Below are positions 11,744 to 59,572 of a stretch of DNA of 64,000 bases, in pieces. Location of the stretch: positions 26,157 to 90,156 of the IMG/VR virus record IMGVR_UViG_3300020119_000126; one strand, written 5' to 3'. Made by a program: the position numbers and the translations under genes. The number at the start of each line of letters is the position of its first letter. The first letter of the stretch is position 1. The notes beneath the pieces are model-generated. The model was not told where the DNA came from. It was given only the letters and a program-made list of their open reading frames with translations, and did not search any database. The DNA comes from a virus.

Positions 11744-12219
11744 ATAGCTCCTACCGTATTCATATCGACGAAGGCCAGATTGACGATTTGATATTGCAGC
11801 ATTGGGTCAAGGTTACTGTCATAGCTCATGTCGTCGAAGAAGTAGATTTTTACAAATGAGGTGTGGCTGACCGTATCCTCACAGTGGTAGTTATCTACCA
11901 GAAACACCCGGCGCTTGAGCAAATGAATGAGCAGGTCAAAGGTCTCCGGGTCAACACGGACCTCATAGCGCATATCCTTGAAGATGATGGGTTCGCCTGA
12001 TGATTTCAACACATGATCATGCGGCACGCCATTCAAAGCGCGTTCTAGACTTGACATGGTACTGAAGACTGGCAAGCGCTTTTGGACATGACCTATTCGA
12101 TAAGGTGGCTCACCATAGACGCCGAAGCCAGTAGGACTGGTAGACCATACACCAAGATGAAGATGATTGGTCAGGGTTTTAGGGGTATAGGAATATCCTG
12201 CTAACATTACTGGCTCCAT
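11740..12219 (-). CDS. Probable distal tail (Dit-like) protein
   Basis: 159-aa gene immediately after the tape measure; assignment is positional. Confidence 0.5.
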   Translation of the reverse strand: MEPVMLAGYSYTPKTLTNHLHLGVWSTSPTGFGVYGEPPYRIGHVQKRLPVFSTMSSLERALNGVPHDHVLKSSGEPIIFKDMRYEVRVDPETFDLLIHLLKRRVFLVDNYHCEDTVSHTSFVKIYFFDDMSYDSNLDPMLQYQIVNLAFVDMNTVGAI

Positions 12220-15200
12220 GTCTTGTCATACATATTGCTGATTGTGCTGATGGCCTTGCCCGGCTTGCTGTCTGGCACCATGATGATGGCATTAGCCCCC
12301 TCAGAATGAATAACCTTGAGCAAGTCACGAATTTCTTTGAGCAATTCAGTCTGCTCAGGTGACATCACCACAGGCGCACCTGCCTGGGGAATGACATATT
12401 CGCCCTTATGGACTGTACCTGCGGCCTGGTATTTACTGCCTGACCCGGTATAGCCACCCTCAGCAAAACCATGATAGCTTGTCGTCCCATCAGGATGGCT
12501 AACTGCGGTGATGCCCATCGGCTGCTGAGTAATGGTTGGGCTATTATAAGTTGACTGCACATGCCACTGACCATCAGCCCCAGCCACAAGAGCACCACCA
12601 CTAGGAACAACGGTTGCTCCACCTGTGCCAGCATAGCTACCACTACCAGAAGGCATAGGGGCTGAAGCTAATTGTTGAAGTTTGGCTGCCACATTGCCAA
12701 GAGTCGTTATTGCCCCTTGTCCAGTCGTTGAGACATACTGAAGGGCAGCCGCATTCTGGCTATAAAGCGTATTGGCCGCTGTGATTGATCCGGCCAGATC
12801 ATCGATAGCTCGTTTTTCAGCCTGATGGAAGGTCAGGCTTTGCTGAGCTTGAGTCAGTTCTTCCTGAGTAATCTGGCGGTTGAAACGGCGCTTCTCATCA
12901 TCAAGCTGGCGTTCTTCATGGGCAAACTCGATTTGCTTCTGGTAGTTCTGCTGCGCCAGTTGGAAGTTCTGGACCTGGAACTGCTTGTCCTGTTGGAAAT
13001 GCTGCTCATCACGCTTATATTGCTCGTCACCCCACTTAATCCTGGTCTTGGCCCGTTCTTCCTCGGTATCCAGATGGCCCATTTGCATGGAGTGTTGAAC
13101 CACAGCCTCATCACGATGCCGCATTGCCACCCGGCGTTCACGACCTCGCGAATAGCGCACGCTTTCATCAGCATCAATCATCGAGAAGCCAAAATTGACC
13201 TCGCTGACATTGCGCTGGAAAGCCATGTCTTGCAGGCCCCATTGCTGCTCAGACACCTGATGACTACGCTGAATCTGCATACTCTGCTGCTGGTAGTTCA
13301 GGTTATAGTTCATCTGCTGGCCTTGCAGCGCCATCTGCTGACCCTGGTACTGGAAGCCCCAGTCCTGCTGAGCACGCTGCTGAGCTACGCCACGATCCTC
13401 AAAGCCCCAGTTGGCCTGAGTCGAGCGTACCTGCCGATTAAGGTCAACCTGAGCCAGATTGAAGTCATATTCCCTGACCTTATATTGCTCGGCATTCATA
13501 GCCGTGGTCAGTTGGACCTGGTTCATGCTGCTCAGTTGGCTGCCACTATAGAGGCTGTTGCCTGTGACCATACGCTGACTTGAAGCGATACCAGCCCGCT
13601 GTGAAGCAATGTCACCAGTAATCCGCTCGTCATAACCCGCCTGCATCCCCAGTGAACCACCACGAGAGCCAGTCTGGACCAGGCGACGATTATTACCGAC
13701 CATGCCACGGTCAGCCGCAATGGAGTTAGCGATAGGATCACCACCTACTACAGCCATACCGAAGGCAAAGTCCTGACCACTGGCATTAGCAGCGAAGGAG
13801 TCGAAGGCTTGCATGGTGGCTGGATTAGCATTGCCATAGCGGGTATAACCAGCGTAAGTGTTGAAAGCGCCCTGTGCCTGGCGACCAATCCGATTAGCCA
13901 GTGCGTAGTCGCCCGATAATTCGGCACGCCGAACTCCCTGGAAGGCGGCTGAAGACTGGTCATTGAAGCCCAGGCCAGCATTAGCCATACCGCCGAACAT
14001 CTGTGCCCCTTGCAAGATGCCCTGTTGCTGCTCGGTGTTCAGACCCATGAAGGTCTGTTCATTCGTTGAGGTCAGACCAGTCTGCCGGGCAAAGGCGTTA
14101 TAGCTGCCTGCATAGGCAGTGGCTACTGTCAGGTTCTTGCCTGCGGTGCCTGTCATCCCATTCATCTGATTAATGGCATTGACCCGGTATTGGTACATTG
14201 CCGCATCATCTGAGGTACCCTTACCTGCCATCTGTGCCCTGGCCTGTGCTAACGCTTCAGGGTCAAGGCCGCGCATCTGCAAGGTGGCATAGCTCAAACC
14301 GATGTGATTGATGTCACCAGAGGATTGAGTCTGGTCAAAGGCATTGATATTATTGAGGTAGTTCCAACCTTGCTGCATATTCCCAGTGCTCATCTCGCCT
14401 GCATTCAGGACGTAGGAAGCACCCATATTGCCAGCCGATGTGGTGTCCATACCTCGACCCAGTTGAAGCTGGTTAGTCATACCAGCCTTCATGCCTGTTC
14501 GACCTAGTAAGCGCTGGAATTGAGCCGGGTCAGAGGTTCTGACACTGTTCAGGATATTGCCCCACAGGTCGCCCTTGGTAGAGTCGTTAAACTGTGACTG
14601 GTAGTCAATACCATACTGCGCCCAGGCACCAGACTGCTGGATACCACCCAGGATGTCGCGCATCGAGCCGGGATTGGCAGTGAACTGGTTGAGCAGGTCA
14701 AGAGGATTAACTATCTGCTGGCCTGCGGCATATTGCTGCTGCTGAGTAGACTGCGCCTGGCCTGAGAAGAAACCCAGTTGTTGCTGCTGAGCGATAGATA
14801 GTCCTGTGACTGCTGTAGCGGCTGTCTGGTAAGCTTTAGAGCCATAAGTGCTGGCTTGAGGACCGCCTTGAGCAAAAGCCACCCCACCCATGATGCCAGC
14901 CGCATCAAAGCCATACTGCTTACCTGCGGCAAACAGTTGGGCGACATTGCCAAAGTTGGCATAATCATTGCCTGCGGCTCCCCCACGCGCTCCACGACCA
15001 CGCAGTCTGTCTTCAGGAATGCCACCAAAGATAGCTTCAGCCTGTACCGTGCCAGCAAACTGAGCAGTGGCATCATATTGGCCGAGCAGTTCGCCGTGCT
15101 CTGAGATGTAGCCCTGCGTAATACGCTGCATCATCTCTGACCCGTACTTCGGTTTCCCATCAGGACCAATAGTGTAGAGGCCAGCATTCAGCGAACTACT

Positions 15201-18200
15201 CTGCATCCAGTTGCTTGCCAGACCAGTCTGACCACGTGAAGCAGATTGAGCAGCAAAGATAGCCGCATAGTCAGCCTGTTTTTGGTTAGGGTCAGCTAAG
15301 CCAGCCAGAACAGTGCCCACATTCTCAATGGGATGTGACCAGGCATCTGAACCAAGCAAATCCATCCGGGTGCTACGGTCTGTAGCTGCCGTATGGATCA
15401 TGCCTGCCACACCCAGGGCAGCCGCCGTACCACCAGCCACTAAACCAGCCGTAGGGCTTTTTGTGGCAAAACCCACACCCATGCCAGCAGCAAGAGCAGG
15501 GCCACCAATGGAAGCCAGTTCACCCAGGAAGCCGCCTGTGCCCACTTGAGCTAGACTGCCAACCAATGGCTGCCAGGTACCTTCGAACATCTTGCCGATA
15601 GATAGCTGCTGAGCTAACTGCGCATTGGAGATTTGAGTCCGAGCATCCTGGCGAGAGGTCGGCTGGTAGAGACTGCCCATACCAGCGGCTTGCAACTGCT
15701 GTATCTGACTAGTGTCAGTTTTGCCATAAAGTTCAGCCGCTTGCTGCAAGGGACCAACGGTCTCCTGCGCGATGTTGCGGAACATACGGTAGCCCATGAC
15801 TGAACTATTGAGGGTACTAAGGGCGGAACCACCCACTTCCCAGGCCAGGCGACCAAGACTGCCGTCCTGACCATACCAACCATTTGCCCGCGCCTCTTTA
15901 CGAGCGTTATAGCCTGACCTACCGCCAGCCATGAAGGGTGCCAGCTTCTCGCGGAAGTCAGGCTCCACATCCATATCGCCAAGGCCCTCGTACTTCTGCG
16001 CAAGCATCCGGTTATACAGACCACCACCACGGGCACCTGTGGCATCAGCACGGCCAAAAAGTCGGTCTTCAGTTCGAGCAAGACCACCAATAGCTTCGCC
16101 GTTCTGCCAGACATTAGCATGACGGTCAAGAACGGCTTGGGCCATCGCCCCACCTGCGCCGCCTTGCTTGACCATGTCTTCAGCATCGCGCAAAGTAGAG
16201 GTCAAGCTGGCATACATCTTGGCCGAGACATCGACGGACTTCATCTGTTCTTCAGTCAGGCGGCCTGTACTGGTTGAGGCTTTACCAGCCGCGTCACTCA
16301 GGCCCAGGAAGGACTTGGCAATATCAGTAAGGTTCTTGTTGACCCCATCCAACGAGCCAACCTGAGCTTGAAGTGTTGCCACAGACTGGTCAGTGCCAAA
16401 CTTACGCATCCCAGCCCGGTCATTCTCTGGAGTCTTGGCAACCCCAGCTTGCTGCTGGTTCTGCATGAACTGCTGCAAGAGAGCAGGATTGCCAGTCGCC
16501 TGACCATTAATGTCTGACCCGAACATCTGCTGGTAAGCACCATAAGCATCACCTGCATTGACATTAAGGCCAGTAATTGCCGCCGCCATAGGATCGTTAT
16601 TGCCACCAGCCTGAGAAGCCACCGCCAGCCCTGCGGATTTAAAGTAACCACGGAGAGAGTTGGCAATAGCCTTAAAGCGTTTACTCTGGTCAGTGCCAAG
16701 CTTGCCTTGACCCATGGCTGAGGTCAGAGTTGCTAGTTCAGCCTGTAGTGTGGCATGACCCCCTTGTGGCGCGAGAATGCCAGCAGCTTTTAGTGCAGCA
16801 TCGCGCTGACTCTCAGTCACCATCTTAGGTGGCTTATCTGATTTCTGACCGCTAGTAATTACCCCTTCAGCACGAGCCTCAAGACTGCCACCCTGGAACA
16901 TTGCGTCAAGGTTTTCGAAGGGTGTATTGATAGAGTCAGCCGGAACCGTCTGGCCTGACCCATAGTCATAGGCAGTACCAGTCTTCTCGTTAATATCATA
17001 CTGACTAGGGTCATGCTTCAGATAACCATAGTCATCGAGAATTTTCTCAGCCCAGCCATAGGTACGCTCACCTGTAGGGTCATCGGCTGACCCCCATTGT
17101 TCAGTTAGTGCGCCACGCTCCACAGCCAGGTTACGTGCTTCACGGTACAGATTTTTGTAAGCACCGAAGTCATTCTTCTTGGTCTCAGCCATCCATTGGC
17201 TGAAACGCGTGGAGCCGTCATAGCCATACTTTTGTTCAGCAACTTCCTGAGCAACACCCCAGGCAGCCCGGTGAGCAGTACGCCAGACCTGACCTGCCAT
17301 ACCCAGGCCCTTACCAACAGTCTTGATATATTTGCCTGTGCGCTTTAGTTCCCTAGCTTCCTCAAGACTTAATTGTGACTGACCCGCCAGAGTAGCTGCA
17401 CGAGCAAACCGACTGCTCATTGCTCCCTGAACTGAGTTAGGGTCATCAGTGTTAATATCGCCCATTGCCAGACCGCCCAAAGCAATAGTTGTTTTGTTCA
17501 ACATACTACGACCAGGCAGGTCAGGCGCTAAGCGTGTCCAGAAGGCATTGGCCTTACTATTAGGGAAGCCCGGACCACTGGGTGGCATTGCCATCGCTCC
17601 ACCAGCAACAGGCGGCATTGGAGGCACTGGTGGCATATTGCCAGCACCCGGAGGCATAGCCGCCGCCGAGGTCTGTTGACCCAGGATATTCGCCATCACG
17701 TCAGCCGTGGTGGTATTCGTGTCAAAGCCTTGCTGGAATGCAGCCCAGTCCATGTCCATATTGTTGCCTGCTTCTATTCCGAGTTCCGCTTGCATCGCCG
17801 CGATTGCTTCTGGCGAAGCATTGTTGGGCATATTGGAGAGCATAGGGATAGCGGGATGGTCAGGAGTTGAGCCATCCCACACTGTTGATTTACCGTCATG
17901 ACTTGTCGTGTAGAACGAAGCCGGACCTTGCGCAGCCGCGAACTGTTCCACAATGGGCTTGAGTTCAGAAGCCGCTTGAGCCAGCACCAGTGGCTCTGCC
18001 GTTGTCGTTTCTTTTCTATTCTTGGTAGCTGCATAAGCAGCCTGCATCGCTGAGATAACCTTCTTGCGACGGTCAGGGTTCTTACCTACCCAGGCTTTGA
18101 ACTTCCGGCCATCAGTGAAGTGCTCAGCGAACTCAGTCTCACTGACCCCGGCTCCCTTGAGATGATTGGCAAAAGTCTCAAAGTCCAAGAAGGCAGTGGT

Positions 18201-21200
18201 CGCTGAGGAAGCTCCGGTGCCCGCCATATATGCATTCAACTGCCGGGTGTGCCTGACCTGGTCTTCAGGGTCAGACATATCACTGAAGGTCAGGTTCCAA
18301 ACCGAGTTATTCTCCTGGTCATACCAGGCTGCCTGACCATTGACCCACACCCCGCCAATATTCAAGCCACCAGTGAACTTCTCACCAGAAGGATCAAAGT
18401 AAAGGGACTGTTTCTTGGAGCGGGCAATGCCATTCATCGTGCCAGGCTTCAAGCCAAGCACCTGCGCGGCAATCTCATGACCAAAGCCTGATGGGTCAGA
18501 CTGCCAGATAGGTGCGCCTGACTTAGATTTGCCCATCTTCTCTGACTGGAAGGGCACACGCAGTACGGTACGACCTACGGCACGAGCCAGTGAGACACCG
18601 CCCATTTCACCAGCACCAAGTAGAGTCTCCATGGCTGCTTCCGCAGTCAGGGCATAAGCTGGCACATGGAAGCGGGCATAAGACTCCTCAGAGTAAGGAG
18701 CGCGAGGCATCATCTGACCCCGGTCTACATTCATTCGTCCCGGTTGAGTAGGTGGAGCACCCATCCCAGCATTGAAACTAGCTGAGAATTCAGCCCAGTC
18801 ACCCGGATCAGGTGGCAGGTCAGCCGCCATAACCATAGGTTCCACAGGAGCCTTAGTCTGCATTCCTGTTAATGCCGTGGCAAAGGCGGTTGGAAATGCC
18901 TGACCTTTTGACCATGGCTGCTCAAAGAAAGTTGTGGCTGCGGTCTTGATTTGATCTATTTGCCGAGCAAAGACTGCTGAAAGTTCTTGAGCACTCTCAT
19001 AAAATAAATCGACATGTTCTTGAGACAGTTGGATAGGGTCAGTAATTAGCTGAGTCGTCAAAGCCCAGGTCATGATGTCACTACGATGAGACAAGGCTCG
19101 CGACTCAATGCCCGACACAGCCATTTCAGCCGCAACACCAGCTAGAAGCCGCTTGGCCTGAGCCTTGCGGTCACTGGTCACGGTAACAATAGCCGCACCT
19201 TTACGACTTAGCTCAGCATCACGCTCAGAACCAATGCTAATGCCCTCTAGACTGCCTGGGGTCAGGAATTCGGCTACTAGAGCATGACCTATCTCATGAA
19301 CGCCTGTGCTTAGTGCGCCAAGGATTGGATGCTCTGGACGAACTGGAAGCAATTCATGAAGCTTGTCTCGGAAGTCGAGATTTTTATATGATTCTTCGAT
19401 TTGCTCCCGATAGCGCTGGCGAGTGGCATCACTCAAGCGGTTGGGGTTAAGCGCCGCCGCTCTAATATTAGAGAAGTCAATTACATCTACTGGCGCAGTC
19501 GGTTCGGCAACATTCGGCATGCCGAAATCTTGCGGAGCCTTGCCAAAGTCCCAGGCTACACCCTTTGAGGTTGGTTTGCCTACCTTATTACGTAGGTCAA
19601 CTGCCCGCTGAGCATATTTTGCCAATGGATCATCAAAGGTTGACCCCTTGAGATGGACCAGTTGGGCAGCCCGCTGAATGGCTTCATTGCCTGCTTCACC
19701 AGTCGGGAAGAACTCCTTATTGTGGTAAAGTGCGTCCATCAGGTCAGTGGCAGACATCTCACCTGACCCATAGAGTCCACCAGTGCCAACGGCCAGTTCT
19801 AGCCGAGCCGCTTGAGCAGCAATCTCCCGGTAGCGGTCAGCCCGTTGTTGAGAACCAAAGCGCTCCTTGGTGAAGAAGGTCGCCACATCATAGGGTAGAT
19901 ACTCGCGTTGTTTCTCCTTGGTAGTGAAGTTCTGGCCGACTTCCTTAGTAATCTGGTTGAGGACCATCTTGCCTGTGAAGTACGAGGCAAAGGAATTACC
20001 CAGGGCAACCCCTGACCCTAGTAACTGGCTGATCTTGCCAGAGGCTGAGCTATCACCATTACGGAAATCTTCCACATGGCGAGTAACTTCAATTAAGGTC
20101 TTCTCATAACTATTTTGGTCAACCGGAACCATGAGCCGCGCAATGTCCTGCGCTGTCATGTTCTCCTTTTTATTGACCAGGAAAGCTTGAATAAGTTTAT
20201 TGGAGACACTACGGTCACTACTCAGGTTGGTATAGTCAACCTTACCCTTCAGATCAGGAAAGAAAGTGCCAAGACTCTCATTAGACAGCTTGAGTAGTTC
20301 CGCACCAGCCGGGTCAAGTGGTTTGGTGTCGAGCACCGTCTGATACTGGTAGGCACGAAAGTTCTCAGAGGCAGTTAGCGCCGCTTCATTATTGCCAAGG
20401 GTCTTATACCAGGCCCTCATGCCAAAGGTCATATTGAATATCTGACCCATCGCAGCTTTGGCTGTGGCAGTATCCTGCGTACCCTGACCAAGCACATTGA
20501 TTGCGGCTGTGGCTGAGTTCTGCTTATTGGCAATGGTATTGGCGATACCAGAGATGGTCAGGCCGCCATAGTCCGTGTTCTGAATTTCAAGCCAGGTTCC
20601 GGCCTGACCCGCTGGATGATTAGGATCAAGAGAGGCAGCCAAAATTTCGGCATGAGGCGTAGGCCGCTGGATACTGACCAGCTTGCCATCACGCAGCGTA
20701 ACCATAGCTGGACCAATGGTTGTGGTATCTTTGTCGAAGTCACCGCCCTGCTTGAACTGGTCAAGAGGTGAAATCATCAACTGGTCTTCGTTGAATTCCA
20801 TGTCGCTCAGACCAAGCCGACGACTTAAGCCCTCACTCATAATTGAGGTATAGCTGGCCTGCTTCAAGGTCATATGAGGTGACCTGAAGATAGGCGCAAC
20901 GGGCAGAATGCCTGCATCCAAAGCACCGACCAGACCTACCTGATGCACTGCCCCCAGGAACTCATGTTCCTTGGCTTTGATAAGGTTAGTAAGGTCTTGC
21001 TCAGACAGGTCATGACCAAGTTCTTTCAGGTTGGCCTTGATGTACTCCCGGTAGCGATGACTGCTCATTCCAGCCAGGCCAGCCGTCATCATCGGGTCAC
21101 CACCCACTGGCAAATGGGCTGCCGCATCACCACGACGACCAATGACTGAGTCGCGAGTTGCCTCTCGACTAGCCAGCTTGGAGACTGCCTCAACTGCACC

Positions 21201-24200
21201 ACGAGCTATCTTGTTATAGTCAAGACCACCACTCAAGCCGCGCTTGCGAGAGCGCAAGGCCATGAGTACACTTTCGTTCAGTGCCCCAATAATTGAGGTC
21301 GCTTCACCGCTGGCCCGGTCATCATCCGTATCCCTGACCATGCCCATAATGGACTCAGGGGTAGGCATGAAGAAACCACGTCGCTGGCCTTCCAGAGTAG
21401 TTGAGATAACTGAGAACTTGTTCGAGCCACCAAGAATGTGTTCCTGGTAAGCCTGAAGCTGAAGCTCAAGCTTATTGGTCGCACCAGAAGCCTTGATTTC
21501 CTCAAAGCGATTGCCAAAAGCTTCCAGTGAGGAATAAGGCGCATTACCAGGTACGACATACTGGTCAGCACCCATACCTTCCACGCCAGCGCCTTCATTG
21601 ATAGCTGCTGCATAGAGCACATCAGCCTTGCGCTGAGCACCAGCCGCACCAAAGCGACTCAAGCGGTCATGCACCGCAGGGTTATCTGCCACAGAACGGG
21701 TCAGAGCCAATAAGTCCTGAGTGTTAACCGTACCACCCTGACCTGCAATCTTGGCTTCAGGCCGAGTCAGCAAAGGTAGCCGAGTTACGGCTTGCCGAAT
21801 TGTTATCTGTGCCTGGTTGTTCTGACCATACTCGACGTTCTGCACCAACCCTGATGGCAACAATGAGCCAAAGTAATTCTGCTGCATGGCCTGATGCTGC
21901 TTATTCAGCATCTCACCTGGCGCAAAGAGCGGTAGCATGTCCTGGCTGACCGTGCGAGTGTGAAGTTCTACACGAGTACGATTGGCAATAAGGTCTTCGA
22001 AAGCCCCACGGAAGACTTCACGGTTTCTGCCAGACCACTGGACTGACCCTTCGTAATCCTGCATGAGACTGCGGTCCCAGGCAGGACGGGACAGCATTTG
22101 ACTGACCTCAGCATTGCTTAATTGCTCATTGCCACGCAGATACTTCTCGCGTATGCCCTTGTCAAACTGAGCATACATCAGGGTCATGTATTCTTCAGGC
22201 CGCGAGGTCGCTAGAGCATTAAGCGCACTAAAGGCAAAAGCTTGCGGGTCATTGATCTTGTTATAGACCAGGTCAGCGTTATATTGCTCTCGTGCTGAGC
22301 GATTCCAGGTGGCAAACGCCTTGGTGCCAGACATGTCCGTGTCGAAAGGCGCACCACGCTCGACATACCCTACCTGGCTATTGAGAGTGTCAATGCGATT
22401 GATATAAGCTTCGTCAAAGCCTCGACCAAGGGTAATCTCCTTGGGTGTACCCGGATTGAGTGTGGTGTCACGACCTGTGCGCAGCCAGTTGCCAGCCATC
22501 TTATTAAGCTGGTCAAGGGTTTCGCCCTCAATCCCCGCATAGAGGTCCAGACTGGCTCGACGTTGCACACCAAGGCGAGGGTCAACGACCACACCACCAT
22601 CGGTGTCCAGAGAGCCATAATGGATAACAGCCGCATCCATCAAGTAACCTGTCAGACCCTGGTTACCATAAGATGTGGTAATGCGTGTACTGCTAGTGAG
22701 CGGCAGTTCCTGACCCGTCTGGCGGTCATAGAACTCAGCCATGGGACGACCACCAAGCTGCTGTGACTTGAGACCCTTGGCCGGATCAGACTTCTTGGTC
22801 AGGTCAGACTTGATACCCTTGATGTCATACATGGTCATGGGCTGACCAAACTCATTCAGTTCAATGGTGCCACCAGGAGCATCGAAGACTGACTTGATGG
22901 TCTGCATGTCGGAATTGCGGGTATAGCCAATGTTCCCGGCAATAGTCCGAGGTGAGGCTACGGCTGAATAGCGTTCATTGGTGTCAGGATTGCGGGCATA
23001 GAGCCACTTGCGGGCATAGTCTGGTACCTGATAACGCGGGTCTTCCTTGATCTGCTTCCGCACTTCATTGAGGTCAAGATAATTAGGCACACCCCCTGCC
23101 CCAAAGTTCACATCATGGGCAATGCGAGTATCGACGACATATTTATTCTGTGTCGAAGCAGCAGCCGGAGGCAGGTACTCCTCAAAGTTAATGCGCGAGA
23201 CCACATCATCAGAACTTCTCGACCTGTGAGAAGCATAGGTCATACGCTGCTTCAGGTCATTGATAGGTTTCTTGGTGAAGGTATCGCGACCCTGCTCATC
23301 AACCTCAATCTGTGCCACATGGCCCGGCAAGCCACCACCCAACAGGATATTCTGCACTGAAGCCCGCTGGTAAGCCATGTTACCTGCTAGAGCGCCTTTG
23401 ACCTCACGGAAAGAATTCGGGTCAGTGATATTGCCGCCTGCGTCCATCTCAGCCGTAGAGTAGCCAACCACCTGATTGCCACGAGCATCCAGAGTCATAA
23501 CAGGCAGCATGGCATAGCCATTGGCATACAACTGCCGCCGCTCTTGCACCTGACCCTGGTCATCCATGTACTCACCAGTCTTGAGTACTGCCACATTCTG
23601 TGTCCAGCGCTGGTTGCCCTGAGCATCGAAGTAACTTACCGCCACATGAGGCTGATTGCCTACGAAGGTAATGGCATCATCAATCTTGACCTGACCGACT
23701 CCTGGCCGTTTATTCAGGTTATTGATTAATGGTTCTAGCACTTCAGTGCGGGTTTTCTTCAGACGGTCAATCTGTTCCTGCTGCCAGCCGACAGTGCGGC
23801 GGGCATTCTCTAGACTATAGGGGCCATTGGCGTGCAGGTAAGACAATTGACTACGTAGGGATACGTAGGCAGCCTGGCGTTCTGCTTCGGGCAGAGTGTC
23901 ATTGTGCATTCGACTGAGGACAGGATTGACGACATCAGGGTGAAGATAGCCAGCTTGAATACCCTTCTTGACGGCAAGGGCAGTTTGGCTGGCTAGTTTA
24001 CTGCGGATATGAGAACGGACACCGGGTTCAGGAATGATCGAAGGATCACGTTTGATGTGCTCAAACGCTTCTTGTCCATACTGGTTAATAATACCAGAAT
24101 GCGCGAGTTGCCTAGCTTGTTCGCCACTGACCCCGATACCCTCAAGTTCATTGACGAGGCGGTCAGCATAGCGGTCATGCAGTTCCGGGGTTAGGTCCAT
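12207..24200 (-). CDS. Giant tape measure protein, 3997 aa, with putative N-terminal two-barrel virion RNA polymerase and M41-like zinc peptidase domains
   Basis: Follows the tail chaperones; A/G/Q-rich helical C-terminal half with 'GFAEGGYTG...AGTVHKGEYVIP' TMP C-terminal motif; 'IFRSP' and 'ISPL..QGGDFDKD' RNAP motifs; HEIGH zincin motif. Confidence 0.8.
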   Translation of the reverse strand: MDLTPELHDRYADRLVNELEGIGVSGEQARQLAHSGIINQYGQEAFEHIKRDPSIIPEPGVRSHIRSKLASQTALAVKKGIQAGYLHPDVVNPVLSRMHNDTLPEAERQAAYVSLRSQLSYLHANGPYSLENARRTVGWQQEQIDRLKKTRTEVLEPLINNLNKRPGVGQVKIDDAITFVGNQPHVAVSYFDAQGNQRWTQNVAVLKTGEYMDDQGQVQERRQLYANGYAMLPVMTLDARGNQVVGYSTAEMDAGGNITDPNSFREVKGALAGNMAYQRASVQNILLGGGLPGHVAQIEVDEQGRDTFTKKPINDLKQRMTYASHRSRSSDDVVSRINFEEYLPPAAASTQNKYVVDTRIAHDVNFGAGGVPNYLDLNEVRKQIKEDPRYQVPDYARKWLYARNPDTNERYSAVASPRTIAGNIGYTRNSDMQTIKSVFDAPGGTIELNEFGQPMTMYDIKGIKSDLTKKSDPAKGLKSQQLGGRPMAEFYDRQTGQELPLTSSTRITTSYGNQGLTGYLMDAAVIHYGSLDTDGGVVVDPRLGVQRRASLDLYAGIEGETLDQLNKMAGNWLRTGRDTTLNPGTPKEITLGRGFDEAYINRIDTLNSQVGYVERGAPFDTDMSGTKAFATWNRSAREQYNADLVYNKINDPQAFAFSALNALATSRPEEYMTLMYAQFDKGIREKYLRGNEQLSNAEVSQMLSRPAWDRSLMQDYEGSVQWSGRNREVFRGAFEDLIANRTRVELHTRTVSQDMLPLFAPGEMLNKQHQAMQQNYFGSLLPSGLVQNVEYGQNNQAQITIRQAVTRLPLLTRPEAKIAGQGGTVNTQDLLALTRSVADNPAVHDRLSRFGAAGAQRKADVLYAAAINEGAGVEGMGADQYVVPGNAPYSSLEAFGNRFEEIKASGATNKLELQLQAYQEHILGGSNKFSVISTTLEGQRRGFFMPTPESIMGMVRDTDDDRASGEATSIIGALNESVLMALRSRKRGLSGGLDYNKIARGAVEAVSKLASREATRDSVIGRRGDAAAHLPVGGDPMMTAGLAGMSSHRYREYIKANLKELGHDLSEQDLTNLIKAKEHEFLGAVHQVGLVGALDAGILPVAPIFRSPHMTLKQASYTSIMSEGLSRRLGLSDMEFNEDQLMISPLDQFKQGGDFDKDTTTIGPAMVTLRDGKLVSIQRPTPHAEILAASLDPNHPAGQAGTWLEIQNTDYGGLTISGIANTIANKQNSATAAINVLGQGTQDTATAKAAMGQIFNMTFGMRAWYKTLGNNEAALTASENFRAYQYQTVLDTKPLDPAGAELLKLSNESLGTFFPDLKGKVDYTNLSSDRSVSNKLIQAFLVNKKENMTAQDIARLMVPVDQNSYEKTLIEVTRHVEDFRNGDSSASGKISQLLGSGVALGNSFASYFTGKMVLNQITKEVGQNFTTKEKQREYLPYDVATFFTKERFGSQQRADRYREIAAQAARLELAVGTGGLYGSGEMSATDLMDALYHNKEFFPTGEAGNEAIQRAAQLVHLKGSTFDDPLAKYAQRAVDLRNKVGKPTSKGVAWDFGKAPQDFGMPNVAEPTAPVDVIDFSNIRAAALNPNRLSDATRQRYREQIEESYKNLDFRDKLHELLPVRPEHPILGALSTGVHEIGHALVAEFLTPGSLEGISIGSERDAELSRKGAAIVTVTSDRKAQAKRLLAGVAAEMAVSGIESRALSHRSDIMTWALTTQLITDPIQLSQEHVDLFYESAQELSAVFARQIDQIKTAATTFFEQPWSKGQAFPTAFATALTGMQTKAPVEPMVMAADLPPDPGDWAEFSASFNAGMGAPPTQPGRMNVDRGQMMPRAPYSEESYARFHVPAYALTAEAAMETLLGAGEMGGVSLARAVGRTVLRVPFQSEKMGKSKSGAPIWQSDPSGFGHEIAAQVLGLKPGTMNGIARSKKQSLYFDPSGEKFTGGLNIGGVWVNGQAAWYDQENNSVWNLTFSDMSDPEDQVRHTRQLNAYMAGTGASSATTAFLDFETFANHLKGAGVSETEFAEHFTDGRKFKAWVGKNPDRRKKVISAMQAAYAATKNRKETTTAEPLVLAQAASELKPIVEQFAAAQGPASFYTTSHDGKSTVWDGSTPDHPAIPMLSNMPNNASPEAIAAMQAELGIEAGNNMDMDWAAFQQGFDTNTTTADVMANILGQQTSAAAMPPGAGNMPPVPPMPPVAGGAMAMPPSGPGFPNSKANAFWTRLAPDLPGRSMLNKTTIALGGLAMGDINTDDPNSVQGAMSSRFARAATLAGQSQLSLEEARELKRTGKYIKTVGKGLGMAGQVWRTAHRAAWGVAQEVAEQKYGYDGSTRFSQWMAETKKNDFGAYKNLYREARNLAVERGALTEQWGSADDPTGERTYGWAEKILDDYGYLKHDPSQYDINEKTGTAYDYGSGQTVPADSINTPFENLDAMFQGGSLEARAEGVITSGQKSDKPPKMVTESQRDAALKAAGILAPQGGHATLQAELATLTSAMGQGKLGTDQSKRFKAIANSLRGYFKSAGLAVASQAGGNNDPMAAAITGLNVNAGDAYGAYQQMFGSDINGQATGNPALLQQFMQNQQQAGVAKTPENDRAGMRKFGTDQSVATLQAQVGSLDGVNKNLTDIAKSFLGLSDAAGKASTSTGRLTEEQMKSVDVSAKMYASLTSTLRDAEDMVKQGGAGGAMAQAVLDRHANVWQNGEAIGGLARTEDRLFGRADATGARGGGLYNRMLAQKYEGLGDMDVEPDFREKLAPFMAGGRSGYNARKEARANGWYGQDGSLGRLAWEVGGSALSTLNSSVMGYRMFRNIAQETVGPLQQAAELYGKTDTSQIQQLQAAGMGSLYQPTSRQDARTQISNAQLAQQLSIGKMFEGTWQPLVGSLAQVGTGGFLGELASIGGPALAAGMGVGFATKSPTAGLVAGGTAAALGVAGMIHTAATDRSTRMDLLGSDAWSHPIENVGTVLAGLADPNQKQADYAAIFAAQSASRGQTGLASNWMQSSSLNAGLYTIGPDGKPKYGSEMMQRITQGYISEHGELLGQYDATAQFAGTVQAEAIFGGIPEDRLRGRGARGGAAGNDYANFGNVAQLFAAGKQYGFDAAGIMGGVAFAQGGPQASTYGSKAYQTAATAVTGLSIAQQQQLGFFSGQAQSTQQQQYAAGQQIVNPLDLLNQFTANPGSMRDILGGIQQSGAWAQYGIDYQSQFNDSTKGDLWGNILNSVRTSDPAQFQRLLGRTGMKAGMTNQLQLGRGMDTTSAGNMGASYVLNAGEMSTGNMQQGWNYLNNINAFDQTQSSGDINHIGLSYATLQMRGLDPEALAQARAQMAGKGTSDDAAMYQYRVNAINQMNGMTGTAGKNLTVATAYAGSYNAFARQTGLTSTNEQTFMGLNTEQQQGILQGAQMFGGMANAGLGFNDQSSAAFQGVRRAELSGDYALANRIGRQAQGAFNTYAGYTRYGNANPATMQAFDSFAANASGQDFAFGMAVVGGDPIANSIAADRGMVGNNRRLVQTGSRGGSLGMQAGYDERITGDIASQRAGIASSQRMVTGNSLYSGSQLSSMNQVQLTTAMNAEQYKVREYDFNLAQVDLNRQVRSTQANWGFEDRGVAQQRAQQDWGFQYQGQQMALQGQQMNYNLNYQQQSMQIQRSHQVSEQQWGLQDMAFQRNVSEVNFGFSMIDADESVRYSRGRERRVAMRHRDEAVVQHSMQMGHLDTEEERAKTRIKWGDEQYKRDEQHFQQDKQFQVQNFQLAQQNYQKQIEFAHEERQLDDEKRRFNRQITQEELTQAQQSLTFHQAEKRAIDDLAGSITAANTLYSQNAAALQYVSTTGQGAITTLGNVAAKLQQLASAPMPSGSGSYAGTGGATVVPSGGALVAGADGQWHVQSTYNSPTITQQPMGITAVSHPDGTTSYHGFAEGGYTGSGSKYQAAGTVHKGEYVIPQAGAPVVMSPEQTELLKEIRDLLKVIHSEGANAIIMVPDSKPGKAISTISNMYDKTWSQ

Positions 24201-24510
24201 TCGCCTGCTGCTTCAAGAATGCTTCAAATTTACGTTCGCCGGATAGTGCCGCCTCTAGCATGACGCACAGACAATACGGTTGGTCGTAATATCCGCCTTC
24301 AACTAAGAGGGGAAGCCCACCAGTGGGGCCAGCAAACGTTCTGAGCTTCCTGAGCATGAGATATTCTTCAGGGATGGGTAGTTCTTCCGCCAACATGAGT
24401 TGACGCCCCGCATCATCAGTTTTGGCTAAATCGACCTGAAACGAGAGGTGAGCGTAGACCTCTCGTTCAATACGATACTGCTCCTGGTCGATTAGCCCTT
24501 CCAGTTTGGG
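24175..24510 (-). CDS. Tail assembly chaperone, -1 frameshift extension (lambda gpGT-like)
   Basis: Overlaps the upstream chaperone in the -1 frame; slippery heptamer C CCA AAC; 'GGYYDQP' motif. Confidence 0.7.
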   Translation of the reverse strand, partial: PKLEGLIDQEQYRIEREVYAHLSFQVDLAKTDDAGRQLMLAEELPIPEEYLMLRKLRTFAGPTGGLPLLVEGGYYDQPYCLCVMLEAALSGERKFEAFLKQQANGPNPGTA

Positions 24511-24944
24511 TTCCACTGAGGATTCACCTGTAGAACCGCATCGTGGATAGCTTCTGCCCATTCTTCGGGCAATAAGCCCCAGGCATCATTGAATTCTGCC
24601 TCAGACATGGATAAAACCATCTTGCCACCATCTTTGCGATAGCGGAATAGACTGTGGGTTGCCGCACCATCAGAGTCAGGGGGAGCCTGAATATTTGAGC
24701 CAGCCAGGGTCAGGTAGACCTCAAGGCGCTTTTGCTCCTCAATGCTCCAACGTTGCTTGACCTCAACTTCCTGAGTGCCAGAACGGAAAATACGACTGGC
24801 ATCAGCCGTTAGTTCTGCCCGACGCTCGACCTCGCGCTGAGTAGCCTGACGGACTTCAACATAAGTATCCTGATCCGGGTCAGACTCAGTATCAAGGGTG
24901 AGGAAGATTTTCTTCTGGATGGGCAGCTTTAAAACAGCAGGCAT
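24492..24944 (-). CDS. Tail assembly chaperone (gpG-like)
   Basis: Position between tail tube and TMP; AGGAG SD; frameshift site at the 3' end. Confidence 0.7.
   Translation of the reverse strand: MPAVLKLPIQKKIFLTLDTESDPDQDTYVEVRQATQREVERRAELTADASRIFRSGTQEVEVKQRWSIEEQKRLEVYLTLAGSNIQAPPDSDGAATHSLFRYRKDGGKMVLSMSEAEFNDAWGLLPEEWAEAIHDAVLQVNPQWNPNWKG
24504..24510 (-). other. Programmed -1 frameshift slippery site CCCAAAC
   Basis: XXXYYYZ heptamer in the correct phase (AAC CCA AAC) just before the chaperone stop; shifting gives ...PKLEGLIDQEQY. Confidence 0.7.
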
Positions 24945-36793: not shown

Positions 36794-36869
36794 TCAACAT
36801 TGTCCCTCGCTCATTGAGTGGGGGACATCTCAATTCTTTCGCAATCATCTATATATAGGGGTAAACATC

Positions 36870-37067
36870 ATGTTCAAGAATTTTCTGATTGTTGCAGCTA
36901 ATGACTATGCCAAAGCAATGTCATCCTCAAATCCGAGCATTGCACAGCGTCAACTCATCACTGTCTACACGGCAGTGAATACCGCAGTGAAAGATGGGTC
37001 AGGCTCAATGAGCATGGCTGTGGCAAAGAAGTATGGTGAGTTCATTTCTCGTTACACCAGGGCTTAG
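36870..37067 (+). CDS. Hypothetical (pre-)early protein
   Basis: ATG 36870 after TATATAGGGG. Confidence 0.6.
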   Translation: MFKNFLIVAANDYAKAMSSSNPSIAQRQLITVYTAVNTAVKDGSGSMSMAVAKKYGEFISRYTRA

Positions 37068-37081
37068 GCTCTGGTTCTTTT
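37057..37081 (+). terminator. Intrinsic terminator
   Basis: CCAGGGC-ttag-GCTCTGG hairpin followed by TTCTTTT. Confidence 0.55.
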
Positions 37082-37279
37082 GGCAACTATCAGGCGTAAT
37101 TGAACGAGCGTTTGATTAGCAGGGTAATCCTCTTACCTCAAATTACAGGATTGGCACTACATTTAATCCTTTCATTAATGTGCAAATATATACTTTGCAT
37201 CATAGCAGCAGTTATCCACCCCCTTTAGCTGCTGCTATGTCCTTTATATATATAGGGGCTTATCCATATAGGGTTTATC

Positions 37280-37456
37280 ATGAACAGCCAGAATGATGCG
37301 CCGAGCATACAGTCTATTCGTTCTCTATCGTCAGAAGACAAGGCTAAGGTCTGTGTATCAGTCAAAGCCTTGATTGAGAAGCTTAAGTCTAATAAGGAGA
37401 AGGGTAATAATGAGTATCATGCGGTTACAGTCCACCAAGAACGGCATGACAGGTAA
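37280..37456 (+). CDS. Small hypothetical protein, 58 aa (below the ORF track cutoff)
   Basis: Read by eye: MNSQNDAPSIQS...; preceded by ATAGGGT. Confidence 0.45.
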   Translation: MNSQNDAPSIQSIRSLSSEDKAKVCVSVKALIEKLKSNKEKGNNEYHAVTVHQERHDR

Positions 37457-38541: not shown

Positions 38542-38570
38542 TTGCTTTTTAATAAGATGACGTTTATAAT
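38542..38570 (+). promoter_or_regulatory. Sigma70-type promoter TTGCTT-N17-TATAAT
   Basis: Consensus -10 element, 17-bp spacer, intergenic, upstream of 38596. Confidence 0.65.
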
Positions 38571-38595
38571 ATAAACATGATAGGGGGAAATAAGG

Positions 38596-39659: not shown

Positions 39660-39728
39660 CTCTGGTCCAACTCGTGTCACACTCGATTGCAACTCTTGTT
39701 CTACTCTAGTATCACTATAGGAGTACAC

Positions 39729-46880: not shown

Positions 46881-46881
46881 G

Positions 46882-56410: not shown

Positions 56411-56963
56411 TGCGTAAAAAGGTGGTCCCGAAGCGGTTATACATTCACTTTGGCTCGGATATAAATGCCATAGTGAGTGCGACTAACCGTCTTCGGGACA
56501 CTCAACCCCGCACGGTGCTCTACGAAATTGACACCCTTGAGCAACTTCGATGGGCACTAGACTTCGCTGACAGTGACCCGGCTGAGAACGCTATCATTGA
56601 GGTAGCGGCCTATACTGCCGAGATGGATAAAGTCGTGCGGGCCTATCATGGTCAACGCGAACTCAACTTCTACGCTTTTTTCGGCATGCCGAAAAAGCAA
56701 TATATTCCTGAAGGAGATGTATGGGTTACTTATACCAGACCTCAGTAATCGCCAATGAGGATGTTTCCCTCAATCCAGGCGATGGGGCTGTAATCAAAAT
56801 CGTGGCTATTGTTGGCGACATTGGCAAAGACTGGGCAGCCTATTGGGGCTGGAACAGTATGCACGACCATCAGATTGCCGAATATGGCATGAAGCTGCCA
56901 AGAGATACTGCTGAGGGGCTATTCCCCTATTTCCGAGAGAAAGGGTTGCACTACCGTGATTAA
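56410..56963 (+). CDS. Two small hypothetical genes (56410-56748 and ~56721-56963)
   Basis: ORF track; coupled to neighbours. Confidence 0.5.
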
Positions 56964-57708: not shown

Positions 57709-57903
57709 AAGTAGACATCAGGGTCAAGGCAGTTTTTAGCGTTGAATTGACCGATGTGGAAGTGGCAGACTCAACGGCCATTCCTCAGTGGCTACAGGAC
57801 AATCTTAGTCCTGTGGTTACTGATAAGGATGGCGTGAACTATCGGCCTGTAGATGCCCACGTCGAATTTTATGTAACAGCATTCACAACGAAGGATACCA
57901 ACA

Positions 57904-59532: not shown

Positions 59533-59572
59533 ACACTCACAAGCCATCATCAGGAACGAAAAGGAGTCTACC

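What the first reader, a model, noticed from the sequence alone, without database searches (positions are those of the whole stretch)
19400..24200. Tape measure protein fused to a putative virion RNA polymerase
Seen: the 3997-aa ORF occupies the TMP position (after the frameshifted chaperones) and ends with a TMP-type 'FAEGGYTG' motif. Its first ~1600 aa are globular and carry TDG (aa ~534), GTK (aa ~627), IFRSP (aa ~1106) and LMISPL-x4-QGGDFDKD (aa 1154-1158, nt 20727-20741). These parallel the beta' RxP...HPL...NADFDGD catalytic barrel of two-barrel polymerases. Established knowledge: a TMP-fused virion RNAP plus a second non-virion RNAP is described for Thermus phage P23-45. Inference: this is a divergent further instance, here with a DFDKD variant and an N4-gp56-like capsid, injected with the DNA to transcribe the first genes.
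Basis: partly seen in the sequence, partly recalled or inferred. Interest (0 to 1): 0.8.

Follow-up and report, generated by a model that had tools for sequence, protein, structure and literature searches.

The report
Tape measure with probable RNA polymerase head
The giant tail "ruler" protein of an uncultured 90-kb phage starts with a large conserved module that carries the catalytic signature of cell-type RNA polymerases, so the phage probably injects its own transcription enzyme, but the fold could not be shown here.

Summary

The family has only five known members, all giant proteins. One was found by searching a single contig that also encodes a relative of the window's 819-aa polymerase. 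Across the five, 110 of 1560 positions are invariant, and the only invariant run of three or more is G-D-F-D-K-D (1153-1158). R1106, P1108, R615 and K627 are also invariant, and D534 is D or E. These eight residues match, in order, the published universal residues of two-barrel RNA polymerases (passages of PMC2919709).

The same genome encodes a free-standing 819-aa protein. It folds confidently (pLDDT 90) as a QDE-1/RDR2/P23-45 gp64-type polymerase.

Against the reading: no sequence or profile method links the tape measure module to any polymerase. hhalign scores do not exceed controls.

My verdict is a probable (about 0.55) tape-measure-fused virion RNA polymerase of the P23-45 kind, belonging to an unrelated sequence family with a Lys variant of the catalytic loop. 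This scan's earlier notes hold similar candidates on other DNA.

The parts
12207..24200 (-). Giant tape measure protein gene, 3997 aa (P0001)
   Evidence: ORF list and translation. It follows the frameshifted chaperone pair. Its C-terminal end hits tape measure PHROGs.
19551..24200 (-). N-terminal conserved module, aa 1 to about 1550: the candidate two-barrel RNA polymerase
   Evidence: Identity to P0003 stays at 30-49% per 100-aa block up to about aa 1500, then collapses; P0003 lacks about aa 1550-1780. Five family members exist. 110 of 1560 positions are invariant.
22596..22601 (-). D534-G535, candidate Mg-B aspartate of barrel B
   Evidence: The column reads D,D,D,D,E and G535 is invariant. 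Assigning it to barrel B is inference from the universal residue list in PMC2919709.
22320..22358 (-). R615 to K627, candidate basic pair of barrel B
   Evidence: R615, P618, D622 and K627 are invariant in 5 of 5; G625 and T626 are not. The assignment is inference.
20877..20885 (-). R1106-S-P1108, candidate RxP of barrel A
   Evidence: R and P are invariant in 5 of 5. It lies 48 aa before the acidic loop. A sub-window hhalign places it on gp96 FRNP (741-743), but the score is not above controls.
20727..20744 (-). G1153-D-F-D-K-D1158, candidate Mg-binding catalytic loop (a DxDxD with Lys in place of the usual Gly)
   Evidence: It is the only invariant run of 3 or more residues in the five-sequence alignment and is present in 5 of 5 family members.
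19284..19298 (-). HEIGH, putative zinc peptidase motif after the module
   Evidence: Position. Pfam Peptidase_M50B scores E 0.016 and 15.3 bits, below its cut-off of 26. No solved relative was found. An HExxH is present in 3 of 5 family members.
15396..15518 (-). Two hydrophobic, Gly/Ala-rich, transmembrane-like segments (aa 2895-2935)
   Evidence: Hydropathy scan. Comparable segments lie in the C-terminal half of all five members.
12207..13706 (-). C-terminal tape measure homology region, including FAEGGYTG (12444-12467)
   Evidence: phrog_24 E 9.4e-13, phrog_1506 E 1.1e-8, phrog_339 E 1.7e-6. aa 3912-3966 match three IMG/VR contigs at 47-49% identity; in one of them (L002) the matching ORF is a 1156-aa tape measure protein, phrog_9959 E 5.3e-67.
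24175..24944 (-). Tail assembly chaperone pair with a -1 frameshift site (CCCAAAC at 24510-24504)
   Evidence: ORFs and sequence. The same 155-aa plus 125-aa overlapping pair precedes the giant ORF in contig G001.
41336..43795 (+). Free-standing 819-aa two-barrel RNA polymerase (P0004), the likely non-virion enzyme
   Evidence: AlphaFold2 with 19 sequences: pLDDT 90.0, pTM 0.86. Foldseek against PDB: RDR2 7w82 E 6.8e-9, QDE-1 7y7t_A E 8.3e-9 and 2j7n_B E 4.3e-8, P74-26 gp62 8f5m E 6.4e-6, P23-45 gp64 8f72 E 1.9e-5, all at probability 1.0. BFVD: P23-45 A7XX94 E 9.8e-6.

Best explanation
The first ~1550 residues of the tape measure protein are a very diverged single-chain two-barrel (double-psi beta-barrel) nucleotide polymerase, most likely a DNA-dependent RNA polymerase.

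Proposed active site: D1154, D1156 and D1158 in the invariant GDFDKD loop would hold the catalytic magnesium. R1106-x-P1108 lies 48 residues upstream in the same barrel. D/E534, R615 and K627 would come from the other barrel.

Proposed mechanism: because the module is part of the tape measure protein, it is built into the tail and leaves the virion with the DNA. Inside the cell it would transcribe the first genes of the rightward early arm. That arm includes the gene for the free-standing 819-aa two-barrel polymerase about 5 kb into it, which would then take over. This is the cascade shown experimentally for Thermus phage P23-45.

Shown here: tape measure identity, conservation of the signature residues, the fold of the second polymerase, and co-occurrence of the two genes.

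Inferred: the fold and activity of the tape measure module, its injection, and which genes it transcribes.
For: 1. Tape measure identity: position after a chaperone pair with an in-register slippery heptamer, and tape measure PHROG hits at the C-terminal end.

2. The module is a discrete conserved unit, found only in five giant proteins. An exhaustive profile search of 1.84 billion representatives gave 3 clusters. One further member came from searching a single contig that also carries a relative of the window's 819-aa polymerase: HMM E 1.7e-11 inside a 4264-aa open frame.

3. Across these five sequences (P0001 and P0024 share 20.5% identity over 1421 aligned pairs), 110 of 1560 positions are invariant. 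The only invariant run of 3 or more is G1153-D1158. R615, K627, R1106 and P1108 are invariant, and D534 is D or E. With residue-specific invariance rates, the six reader-named residues being invariant has p about 1.3e-6. That figure assumes independence, which neighbouring residues violate.

4. The eight residues correspond, in order, to the eight residues reported as invariant in all two-barrel RNA polymerases. In QDE-1 these are D709, R738, K743, R962, P964, D1007, D1009 and D1011 (passages of PMC2919709). The RxP-to-Asp spacing is 48 here, against 45 in QDE-1 by those numbers and 38 in gp96.

5. Local context resembles gp96: FRSP against FRNP, and GGDFDKDT against GVDFDGDT.

6. Architecture parallels gp96 as described in PMC10770324 section 6: N-terminal polymerase, then a metallopeptidase motif, then membrane segments, then the tape.

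7. The genome encodes a second two-barrel polymerase, shown by fold. The tape measure module and this polymerase co-occur on the window's genome and on contig G001, in the same divergent arrangement. The P0002 and P0006 pair probably shares one 92,031-bp contig; this is inferred from equal contig lengths.

8. Control for the blindness of sequence methods: the fold-verified 819-aa polymerase family also finds no polymerase among PDB sequences (11 unrelated hits, best E 0.041), nor in Pfam or PHROGs.

9. Lead only: in the ESM Atlas feature search of aa 480-1560, the first named cluster is a viral PF05183 RdRP cluster at rank 10, score 0.88, with a low recognition value.
Against: - No significant similarity to any polymerase was found by Pfam, PHROGs, phmmer or hmmsearch against PDB sequences, or tblastn against 50,697 phage records.
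- Profile-profile comparison with the gp96 family gave probability 0.75%. With the 819-aa family it gave 0.16%. With the five-sequence profile the values were 0.78% and 0.09%.
- The sub-window alignment that lands on gp96 721-809 scores 24.0. Reversed-sequence controls reach 24.1, and other windows (aa 960-1162) score 26-28 on a non-colinear part of gp96. That alignment therefore carries no statistical weight.
- The AlphaFold2 model (4 sequences) has mean pLDDT 41.5 and pTM 0.28, and the motif region is below 50. Foldseek on it gave no match at E <= 0.001. The fold is not shown.
- I found Lys at the fourth loop position in no described polymerase. A full-text search for 'DFDKD' returned 7 papers, none about polymerases by title.
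- The candidate barrel-B residues lie about 480-620 aa before the loop, much further than in gp96 (K548 to D779). Their assignment is post hoc.
- No second promoter-like motif class was found in intergenic DNA.
Confidence: 0.55

Rival explanations
1. The N-terminal module is an ejected or tail-lumen protein of some other function, such as a different metal-dependent enzyme, an anti-defence effector or a structural plug. The invariant GDFDKD loop with RxP would be a metal- or ligand-binding site unrelated to two-barrel polymerases.
For: No method linked the module to polymerases above control level. The fold is unknown. The motif pair alone arises in 1-3% of shuffles. The loop has Lys where described polymerases have Gly. 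The barrel-B assignment is post hoc.
Against: All eight universal two-barrel residues can be placed in the right order, and seven are strictly invariant. The loop does not fit an EF-hand or DxDxDG calcium site: position 6 is T, T, D, A or R rather than G (column 1159), and position 12 in the window protein is Ala rather than Glu (counted by me). The precedent (gp96) is in the same protein class, and the partner polymerase is in the same genome. The fold-verified partner shows that sequence methods miss this superfamily.
Confidence: 0.27
2. The module is a two-barrel polymerase fold but does not act as the transcriptase of pre-early genes. It could be an RNA-dependent or primer-synthesising enzyme, a DNA polymerase of the PolD kind, or an inactivated relic kept for assembly. 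Host RNA polymerase would then start the infection.
For: Template and product cannot be read from the signature residues. AT-rich elements with TATA-like boxes stand before the first small early ORFs and could be host promoters. No polymerase-specific promoter class emerged. Relatives of the 819-aa polymerase are common in Chloroflexota assemblies that lack the tape measure module: 0 of 5 and 0 of 401 genomes matched. PMC10770324 section 9 likewise reports Thermus phages with gp64 homologues but no fused polymerase.
Against: Strict invariance of all three aspartates and of the basic residues argues for a working active site. The only characterised tape-measure-fused example is a DNA-dependent transcriptase (PMC10770324, sections 6-9). 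No conventional DNA polymerase domain was searched for systematically, so a replicative role is untested.
Confidence: 0.15
3. The motifs are chance matches in an ordinary long tape measure protein.
For: One D.D.D is expected by chance in a protein of this size; a second one, DTDDD at 957, is present and is not conserved.
Against: The loop is the only invariant run of 3 or more across five proteins at about 20-76% identity, and six of seven reader-named residues are invariant. The module is a distinct conserved unit of ~1550 aa, not a low-complexity tape.
Confidence: 0.03

Closest known systems
Thermus phage P23-45 gp96 (also P74-26, G20c, TSP4 and the P23-45_stolb phages): tape-measure-fused virion RNA polymerase; PDB 8H2M, 8H2N (PMC10770324)
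   Same: - A giant tape measure protein with a large N-terminal module carrying a D-F-D-x-D loop preceded by F-R-x-P.
- An HExxH motif and membrane-like segments further along.
- A second, free-standing two-barrel polymerase elsewhere in the genome.
   Different: - No detectable sequence or profile similarity: hhalign probability 0.75%, and tblastn of gp96 aa 1-1200 finds only 10 Thermus phage records.
- The loop is DFDKD rather than DFDGD and sits at residue 1154 rather than 779.
- The module is about 1550 aa, against about 1050-1200 aa.
- The candidate barrel-B residues are about 530 aa upstream, against 231 aa.
- The fold and activity are not shown here.
- The likely host phylum differs (Chloroflexota by association).
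P23-45 gp64 / P74-26 gp62 non-virion RNA polymerase (PDB 8F72, 8F5M) and QDE-1/RDR2 cellular RNA-dependent RNA polymerases (PDB 2J7N, 7Y7T, 7W82)
   Same: The window's 819-aa protein (41336-43795) shares their fold: Foldseek E from 6.8e-9 to 1.9e-5, probability 1.0. It plays the role of the second polymerase in the proposed cascade.
   Different: This comparison concerns the partner gene, not the tape measure module. Its family's acidic loop is G-G-x-D-G-D-D in the consensus (GGFDADD in the window protein), with invariant D365, D367 and D368, rather than DxDxD. It has no sequence-level match to these structures.
crAss-like phage phi14:2 gp66 virion-packaged RNA polymerase (PDB 6VR4)
   Same: It is a two-barrel polymerase delivered from the virion as part of a very large protein (as described in PMC10770324 section 11).
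   Different: It is not a tape measure fusion. The only structural link obtained here is from the 819-aa protein and is weak: E 2.9e-2, probability 0.38.

Membership tests
Two-barrel (double-psi beta-barrel) RNA polymerases | DxDxD magnesium-binding loop in barrel A | tested here: met
   D1154, D1156 and D1158 are invariant in 5 of 5 family members and lie within the only invariant run of 3 or more. The fourth position is Lys, not Gly.
Two-barrel (double-psi beta-barrel) RNA polymerases | Invariant Arg-x-Pro some tens of residues before the loop | tested here: met
   R1106 and P1108 are invariant in 5 of 5, 48 aa upstream. The feature definition comes from passages of PMC2919709.
Two-barrel (double-psi beta-barrel) RNA polymerases | Barrel-B aspartate plus two basic residues | tested here: inconclusive
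   The candidates are D/E534 (D in 4, E in 1), R615 and K627 (both invariant). Their assignment is post hoc, without a structure, and the spacing to barrel A is unusually long.
Two-barrel (double-psi beta-barrel) RNA polymerases | Two double-psi beta-barrel folds facing one active site | tested here: inconclusive
   AlphaFold2 on aa 380-1579 with 4 sequences gave mean pLDDT 41.5 and pTM 0.28. Foldseek against PDB found no match at E <= 0.001.
Two-barrel (double-psi beta-barrel) RNA polymerases | Significant sequence or profile similarity to a known member | tested here: not met
   all failed. The fold-verified 819-aa polymerase of the same genome also fails this test, so the feature is not diagnostic for this superfamily.
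Two-barrel (double-psi beta-barrel) RNA polymerases | Template-dependent RNA synthesis | not testable with these tools
   This needs the biochemistry set out under the next steps.
Tape-measure-fused virion RNA polymerase (P23-45 gp96 type) | The carrier protein is the tail tape measure protein | tested here: met
   Frameshifted chaperone pair directly upstream. C-terminal tape measure PHROG hits. Transmembrane-like segments.
Tape-measure-fused virion RNA polymerase (P23-45 gp96 type) | Homology to gp96 | tested here: not met
   hhalign probability 0.75%. The sub-window score equals controls. tblastn with gp96 finds only Thermus phages.
Tape-measure-fused virion RNA polymerase (P23-45 gp96 type) | A separate non-virion two-barrel polymerase in the same genome | tested here: met
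   The 819-aa protein: pLDDT 90, Foldseek probability 1.0 to gp64, gp62, QDE-1 and RDR2.
Tape-measure-fused virion RNA polymerase (P23-45 gp96 type) | Metallopeptidase and membrane domains after the polymerase | tested here: inconclusive
   The HEIGH motif has only a sub-threshold Pfam hit and no solved relative. HExxH is present in 3 of 5 members. Transmembrane-like segments are present in 5 of 5.
Tape-measure-fused virion RNA polymerase (P23-45 gp96 type) | Presence in virions and transcription of pre-early genes | not testable with these tools
   The phage is uncultured (an IMG/VR record).
EF-hand / DxDxDG calcium-binding loop | Gly at loop position 6 and Glu at position 12 | tested here: not met
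   Position 6 (column 1159) is T, T, D, A or R. Position 12 in the window protein is Ala (counted by me).

The most novel reading that the evidence does not exclude
Fusing a polymerase to the tape measure may be a recurrent phage strategy rather than a Thermus-phage curiosity. On this reading, a sequence family with no detectable similarity to gp96, in phages probably infecting Chloroflexota, fused a two-barrel RNA polymerase to its tape measure protein. That enzyme would use a Lys-containing catalytic loop (DFDKD), would have an insertion of ~480 aa between the two barrels, and would work in tandem with a partner polymerase whose own loop is rewired to DxDD.
Probability: 0.4. Interest if true: 0.75.

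Novelty: new variant of a known kind. Interest (0 to 1): 0.62.

Why it matters
In print, a polymerase built into the tail ruler is known only from Thermus phage P23-45 and its relatives. The two full-text searches list no other case.

A second family with no detectable sequence similarity would show that delivering a transcriptase on the tape measure is a general way for phages to be independent of host RNA polymerase from the first second of infection.

It would also supply a natural Gly-to-Lys variant of the most conserved loop of cellular-type RNA polymerases. That bears on how the active site tolerates change.

Finally, it pairs two very diverged two-barrel enzymes in one 90-kb genome, which is useful for tracing the origin of this polymerase superfamily.

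The practical limit is that the phage is uncultured and the fold is not yet shown.

Tried and rejected
Searches and tests that led nowhere:
- Whole-protein Pfam and PHROGs scans gave nothing useful. Only the C-terminal 499 aa scanned alone revealed the tape measure families.
- tblastn of aa 1-1600 against the phage collection found no match.
- PDB sequence searches with the protein and with the family profile gave only unrelated hits at E >= 0.66.
- The search for related loci with aa 380-1579 found nothing in viral or genome contigs. With the full alignment it found only C-terminal matches. With A7 it found only contig G001 again in viral contigs and nothing in metagenome contigs.
- The profile found no module in 5 Chloroflexota genomes that hold relatives of the 819-aa polymerase, none in 401 genomes of that class, and none in the 10-kb flanks of 74 loci.
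- hhalign of the family against gp96 and against the 819-aa family was not significant. The motif-window alignment was rejected as evidence after sliding-window and reversed controls.
- The AlphaFold2 model of aa 380-1579 was unusable, and Foldseek on it was meaningless.
- Pfam at E <= 10 on sub-pieces gave no polymerase family.
- The metallopeptidase reading of aa 1590-1800 has no support among solved structures.
- A search for promoter classes did not succeed. TATAGG-type elements are not a repeated class, and a 9-mer enrichment over 41 intergenic gaps gave only genome-wide words and a tRNA fragment.
- The EF-hand reading of the loop was rejected (see the membership test).
- N4-like capsid: no sequence support.

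Not seen:
- Supplementary Figs 7-11 and Supplementary Data 3 of PMC10770324, the structure-based alignments of 23 polymerase families. They could show whether any family has Lys in the loop, and which gp96 residues form barrel B.
Full report
**What is there.** The window is bases 26157-90156 of a 90,156-bp IMG/VR virus record with direct terminal repeats, rated 100% complete. On the minus strand lies a late-gene block:
- large terminase (phrog_2, E 3e-11)
- portal (PF05133, E 3.4e-11)
- major head protein (phrog_1357, E 6.3e-15)
- a 602-aa and a 131-aa tail protein of unknown family
- two overlapping small ORFs
- the 3997-aa ORF 12207-24200
- tail-tip and fibre-like genes

The two small ORFs are joined by C-CCA-AAC at 24510-24504, in the exact register for a -1 shift from the first frame into the second (read by me). 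This is the usual mark of tail assembly chaperones that precede the tape measure gene. The last 499 residues of the giant protein, scanned alone, hit tape measure PHROGs: phrog_24 E 9.4e-13, phrog_1506 E 1.1e-8 and phrog_339 E 1.7e-6. The whole-protein scans had missed them. DFDKD is residues 1154-1158, nt 20727-20741.

**The family.**
- A word-indexed search of 5.8 billion proteins gave two relatives: P0002 (4043 aa, 76% identity) and P0003 (3426 aa, 38%).
- An exhaustive HMMER profile search of 1.84 billion cluster representatives, using aa 380-1579, gave only three clusters. All are giant proteins, and they added P0005 (4139 aa). No free-standing form of the module appeared, although that search has no length limit.
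- A fifth member came indirectly. A relative of the window's 819-aa gene lies on IMG/VR contig G001, 73,860 bp. Searching that contig with the module profile hit a 4264-aa open frame at E 1.7e-11 (profile positions 639-884) and at E 0.0054 (positions 143-267).
- That giant ORF runs off the contig end. It is preceded by a 608-aa protein and a 155-aa plus 125-aa overlapping pair, which is the same synteny as in the window.
- Identity between P0001 and this protein is 20.5% over 1421 aligned pairs.
- Block-wise identity shows that aa 1 to about 1500 form a unit. After it, similarity collapses, and P0003 lacks about aa 1550-1780.

In the five-sequence alignment, 110 of 1560 positions are invariant. 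The only invariant run of three or more is G1153-D-F-D-K-D1158. R1106 and P1108 (of IFRSP) and K627 (of GTK) are invariant. D534 (of TDG) is D in four and E in one, and G535 is invariant. R615, P618 and D622 are also invariant. G625 and T626 are not. With residue-specific invariance rates, the six invariant ones have joint p about 1.3e-6. That figure assumes independence, which adjacent positions violate. By itself the motif pair occurs in 169 (strict form) to 583 (loose form) of 20000 shuffles.

**Comparison with what defines two-barrel polymerases.** Passages of PMC2919709 state that all members share eight invariant residues around the catalytic magnesium. In QDE-1 they are D709, R738 and K743 in one barrel, and R962, P964, D1007, D1009 and D1011 in the other. 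The tape measure module offers D/E534, R615, K627, R1106, P1108, D1154, D1156 and D1158 in the same order. The barrel-A part is convincing in spacing: 48 residues from Arg to the first Asp, against 45 in QDE-1 by those numbers and 38 in gp96 by the invariant columns. Its context is also convincing: FRSP against gp96 FRNP, and GGDFDKDT against gp96 GVDFDGDT. The barrel-B part is my post hoc assignment, and it lies unusually far upstream. From memory, and not from any call, the segment hydrophobic strand - SPL - short helix - GG - DFDxD - T - strand also resembles the bacterial beta-prime pattern around NADFDGD.

**The second polymerase.** The 819-aa ORF at 41336-43795 (+) has no Pfam, PHROG or PDB-sequence match. 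It has 18 relatives at 24-79% identity. With that alignment AlphaFold2 gave pLDDT 90.0 and pTM 0.86. Foldseek against the PDB gave the following, all at probability 1.0:
- maize RDR2 7w82, E 6.8e-9
- QDE-1 7y7t_A, E 8.3e-9, and 2j7n_B, E 4.3e-8
- P74-26 gp62 8f5m, E 6.4e-6
- P23-45 gp64 8f72, E 1.9e-5

Weaker rows were phi14:2 gp66 (E 2.9e-2) and gp96 8h2m (E 9.6e-2). In BFVD the best matches are two uncharacterised phage proteins (E 7.6e-38 and 4.6e-31). P23-45 A7XX94 scores E 9.8e-6. The family's acidic loop is G-G-x-D-G-D-D in the consensus (GGFDADD in the window protein), with invariant D365, D367 and D368. It is followed by an invariant R-S-P-N-Q.

This protein also serves as a control. 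A profile of this fold-verified polymerase family finds no polymerase among PDB sequences: 11 unrelated hits, best E 0.041. Negative sequence searches therefore say little about membership in this superfamily.

**Evidence against, told in full.**
- No sequence method connects the tape measure module to any polymerase.
- hhalign against a three-sequence gp96 family alignment (P23-45, P23-45_stolb3, TSP4) gave probability 0.75%. Against the 819-aa family it gave 0.16%. The five-sequence profile did no better, at 0.78% and 0.09%.
- A 116-residue window around the motifs aligns best to gp96 721-809, in register at both motifs, with score 24.0 and P 0.022. In the control run, however, reversed windows reached 24.1. 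Windows covering aa 960-1162 scored 26-28 on gp96 about 800-1009, which is not colinear with that mapping. I give the alignment no weight.
- AlphaFold2 on aa 380-1579 with four sequences gave mean pLDDT 41.5, with the motif region below 50. Foldseek on this model found nothing at E <= 0.001.

**Leads and context.**
- The ESM Atlas feature search with aa 480-1560 returned unnamed viral clusters first (scores 0.95, 0.92, 0.90). The first named family was a viral PF05183 RdRP cluster at rank 10, score 0.88. The recognition value was low, so this is a lead only.
- The architecture after the module recalls gp96 as described in PMC10770324 section 6: an HExxH motif (3 of 5 members), hydrophobic Gly/Ala-rich segments (5 of 5), and a GGYTG end (4 of the 4 complete members). 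The peptidase reading itself rests on a sub-threshold Pfam hit.
- The tape measure module and the 819-aa polymerase co-occur on the window's genome and on G001, in mirrored but equal arrangement: divergent strands, 15-17 kb apart. P0002 and P0006 probably share one 92,031-bp contig. This is inferred from equal contig lengths.
- The converse does not hold. Relatives of the 819-aa polymerase are frequent in bacterial assemblies: 121 by tblastn, 74 loci listed. Of the 74 titles, 61 name Chloroflexota/Chloroflexi(a), Anaerolineae/-aceae/Anaerolinea or Ardenticatenaceae/-ales. Eleven name taxa that I recall as Chloroflexota but did not check. One names Elusimicrobiales and one is an unclassified 'bacterium'. 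Several genomes hold more than one copy.
- The module was found in 0 of 5 such genomes and in 0 of 401 genomes sampled from the class.
- PMC10770324 section 9 reports the same asymmetry for Thermus phages: G18 and phiFa have a gp64 homologue but no fused polymerase.

**How it most likely works.**
- Shown: the gene is the tape measure protein. Its first ~1550 residues are a conserved unit whose most constrained site is a DxDxD-type loop with an upstream RxP. A bona fide two-barrel polymerase is encoded about 5 kb into the rightward early arm.
- Inferred: the module is a two-barrel RNA polymerase that travels with the tape measure protein out of the tail. It would transcribe the small ORFs at window 36.4-41.3 kb and the 819-aa polymerase gene, after which the latter enzyme transcribes further early and middle genes, as in P23-45 (PMC10770324, sections 8, 9 and 12).
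- I could not find distinct promoter classes. The AT-rich TATATAGGGG-like elements before the first ORFs are unassigned.

**Novelty.** In the two full-text searches, the only tape-measure-fused polymerase in print is that of P23-45 and its relatives. 'DFDKD' occurs in 7 papers, none of them on polymerases by title. This scan's own earlier notes list many candidate polymerases fused to or next to the tape measure in other uncultured phages: 89 notes in at least 75 genomes, unchecked by me. None is a sequence look-alike of this module. I therefore class it as a new variant of a known kind: a family with no detectable sequence similarity to gp96, a Lys-bearing loop and a longer module.

**Papers: what I saw.**
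- PMC10770324: outline and sections 6, 8, 9, 11, 12 and 42.
- PMC2919709: passages returned by a term search.
- All other papers: search listings only.
- Supplements were not seen.

Noticed in passing
window 41336-43795 (+): The free-standing 819-aa two-barrel polymerase has a rewired acidic loop, G-G-x-D-G-D-D in the family consensus (GGFDADD in the window protein), with D365, D367 and D368 invariant in 19 sequences. An invariant R-S-P-N-Q follows it about 21 aa later. A nearly invariant R313-x-P315 lies about 50 aa before the loop.
   Followed up: partly
loci L015-L088 (genome contigs): There are 121 relatives of the 819-aa polymerase in bacterial assemblies. Most are in Chloroflexota (Anaerolineae, Ardenticatenaceae and others), often with several copies per genome, some on megabase contigs. 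This suggests a host phylum for the phage, and a mobile-element or cellular life for this polymerase family.
   Followed up: partly
window 24504-24510 (-): A canonical -1 slippery heptamer, CCCAAAC, links the two tail chaperone ORFs. The same ORF pair is present in contig G001.
   Followed up: yes
window 46813-48069 (+): A 418-aa early protein carries a PARP-type ADP-ribosyltransferase catalytic domain (PF00644, E 2.2e-23). It may be a host-takeover or anti-defence enzyme.
   Followed up: no
window 3909-5081 (-): A 390-aa protein in the tail-fibre region has two C39-like papain-fold peptidase domains (PF13529 E 2.8e-29, PF03412 E 4.5e-16) and an endolysin-type PHROG hit.
   Followed up: no
window 36840-37280 and 38560-38590, 39700-39725 (+): AT-rich elements of the form TATATAGGGG or ACTATAGGAG lie 8-12 nt before the start codons of the first small early ORFs. 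They are not a genome-wide repeated class, and their role (promoter, ribosome site or both) is open.
   Followed up: partly
P0003 versus P0001 aa ~1550-1780 (window ~18860-19550): The HExxH region is missing from P0003 and P0005 and is duplicated in the G001 protein (HEAGH and HEFAH). The putative peptidase is therefore an optional insert, not a core part of the fusion.
   Followed up: partly
window 56956-62119 (+) and genome 1-26 kb (L008, L009): The genome has a rich nucleotide-metabolism and nucleic-acid set: ThyX, a dCTP deaminase-like protein, a 2OG-Fe(II) oxygenase, an MT-A70 methyltransferase, class I/II-type ribonucleotide reductase, RNA ligase, primase zinc ribbon and a DnaB-like helicase. 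No DNA polymerase domain appeared among the proteins I scanned.
   Followed up: no
P0001 aa 960-1162 versus gp96 aa ~800-1009: Sliding-window hhalign gave its highest scores (26-28, P 0.005-0.01) for this non-colinear pairing. It may be composition or helical-repeat noise and remains unexplained.
   Followed up: no
window 12207-24200: Whole-protein hmmscan against PHROGs found nothing, while the last 499 aa alone hit three tape measure families. Long low-complexity proteins can hide real domain hits from whole-length scans.
   Followed up: yes
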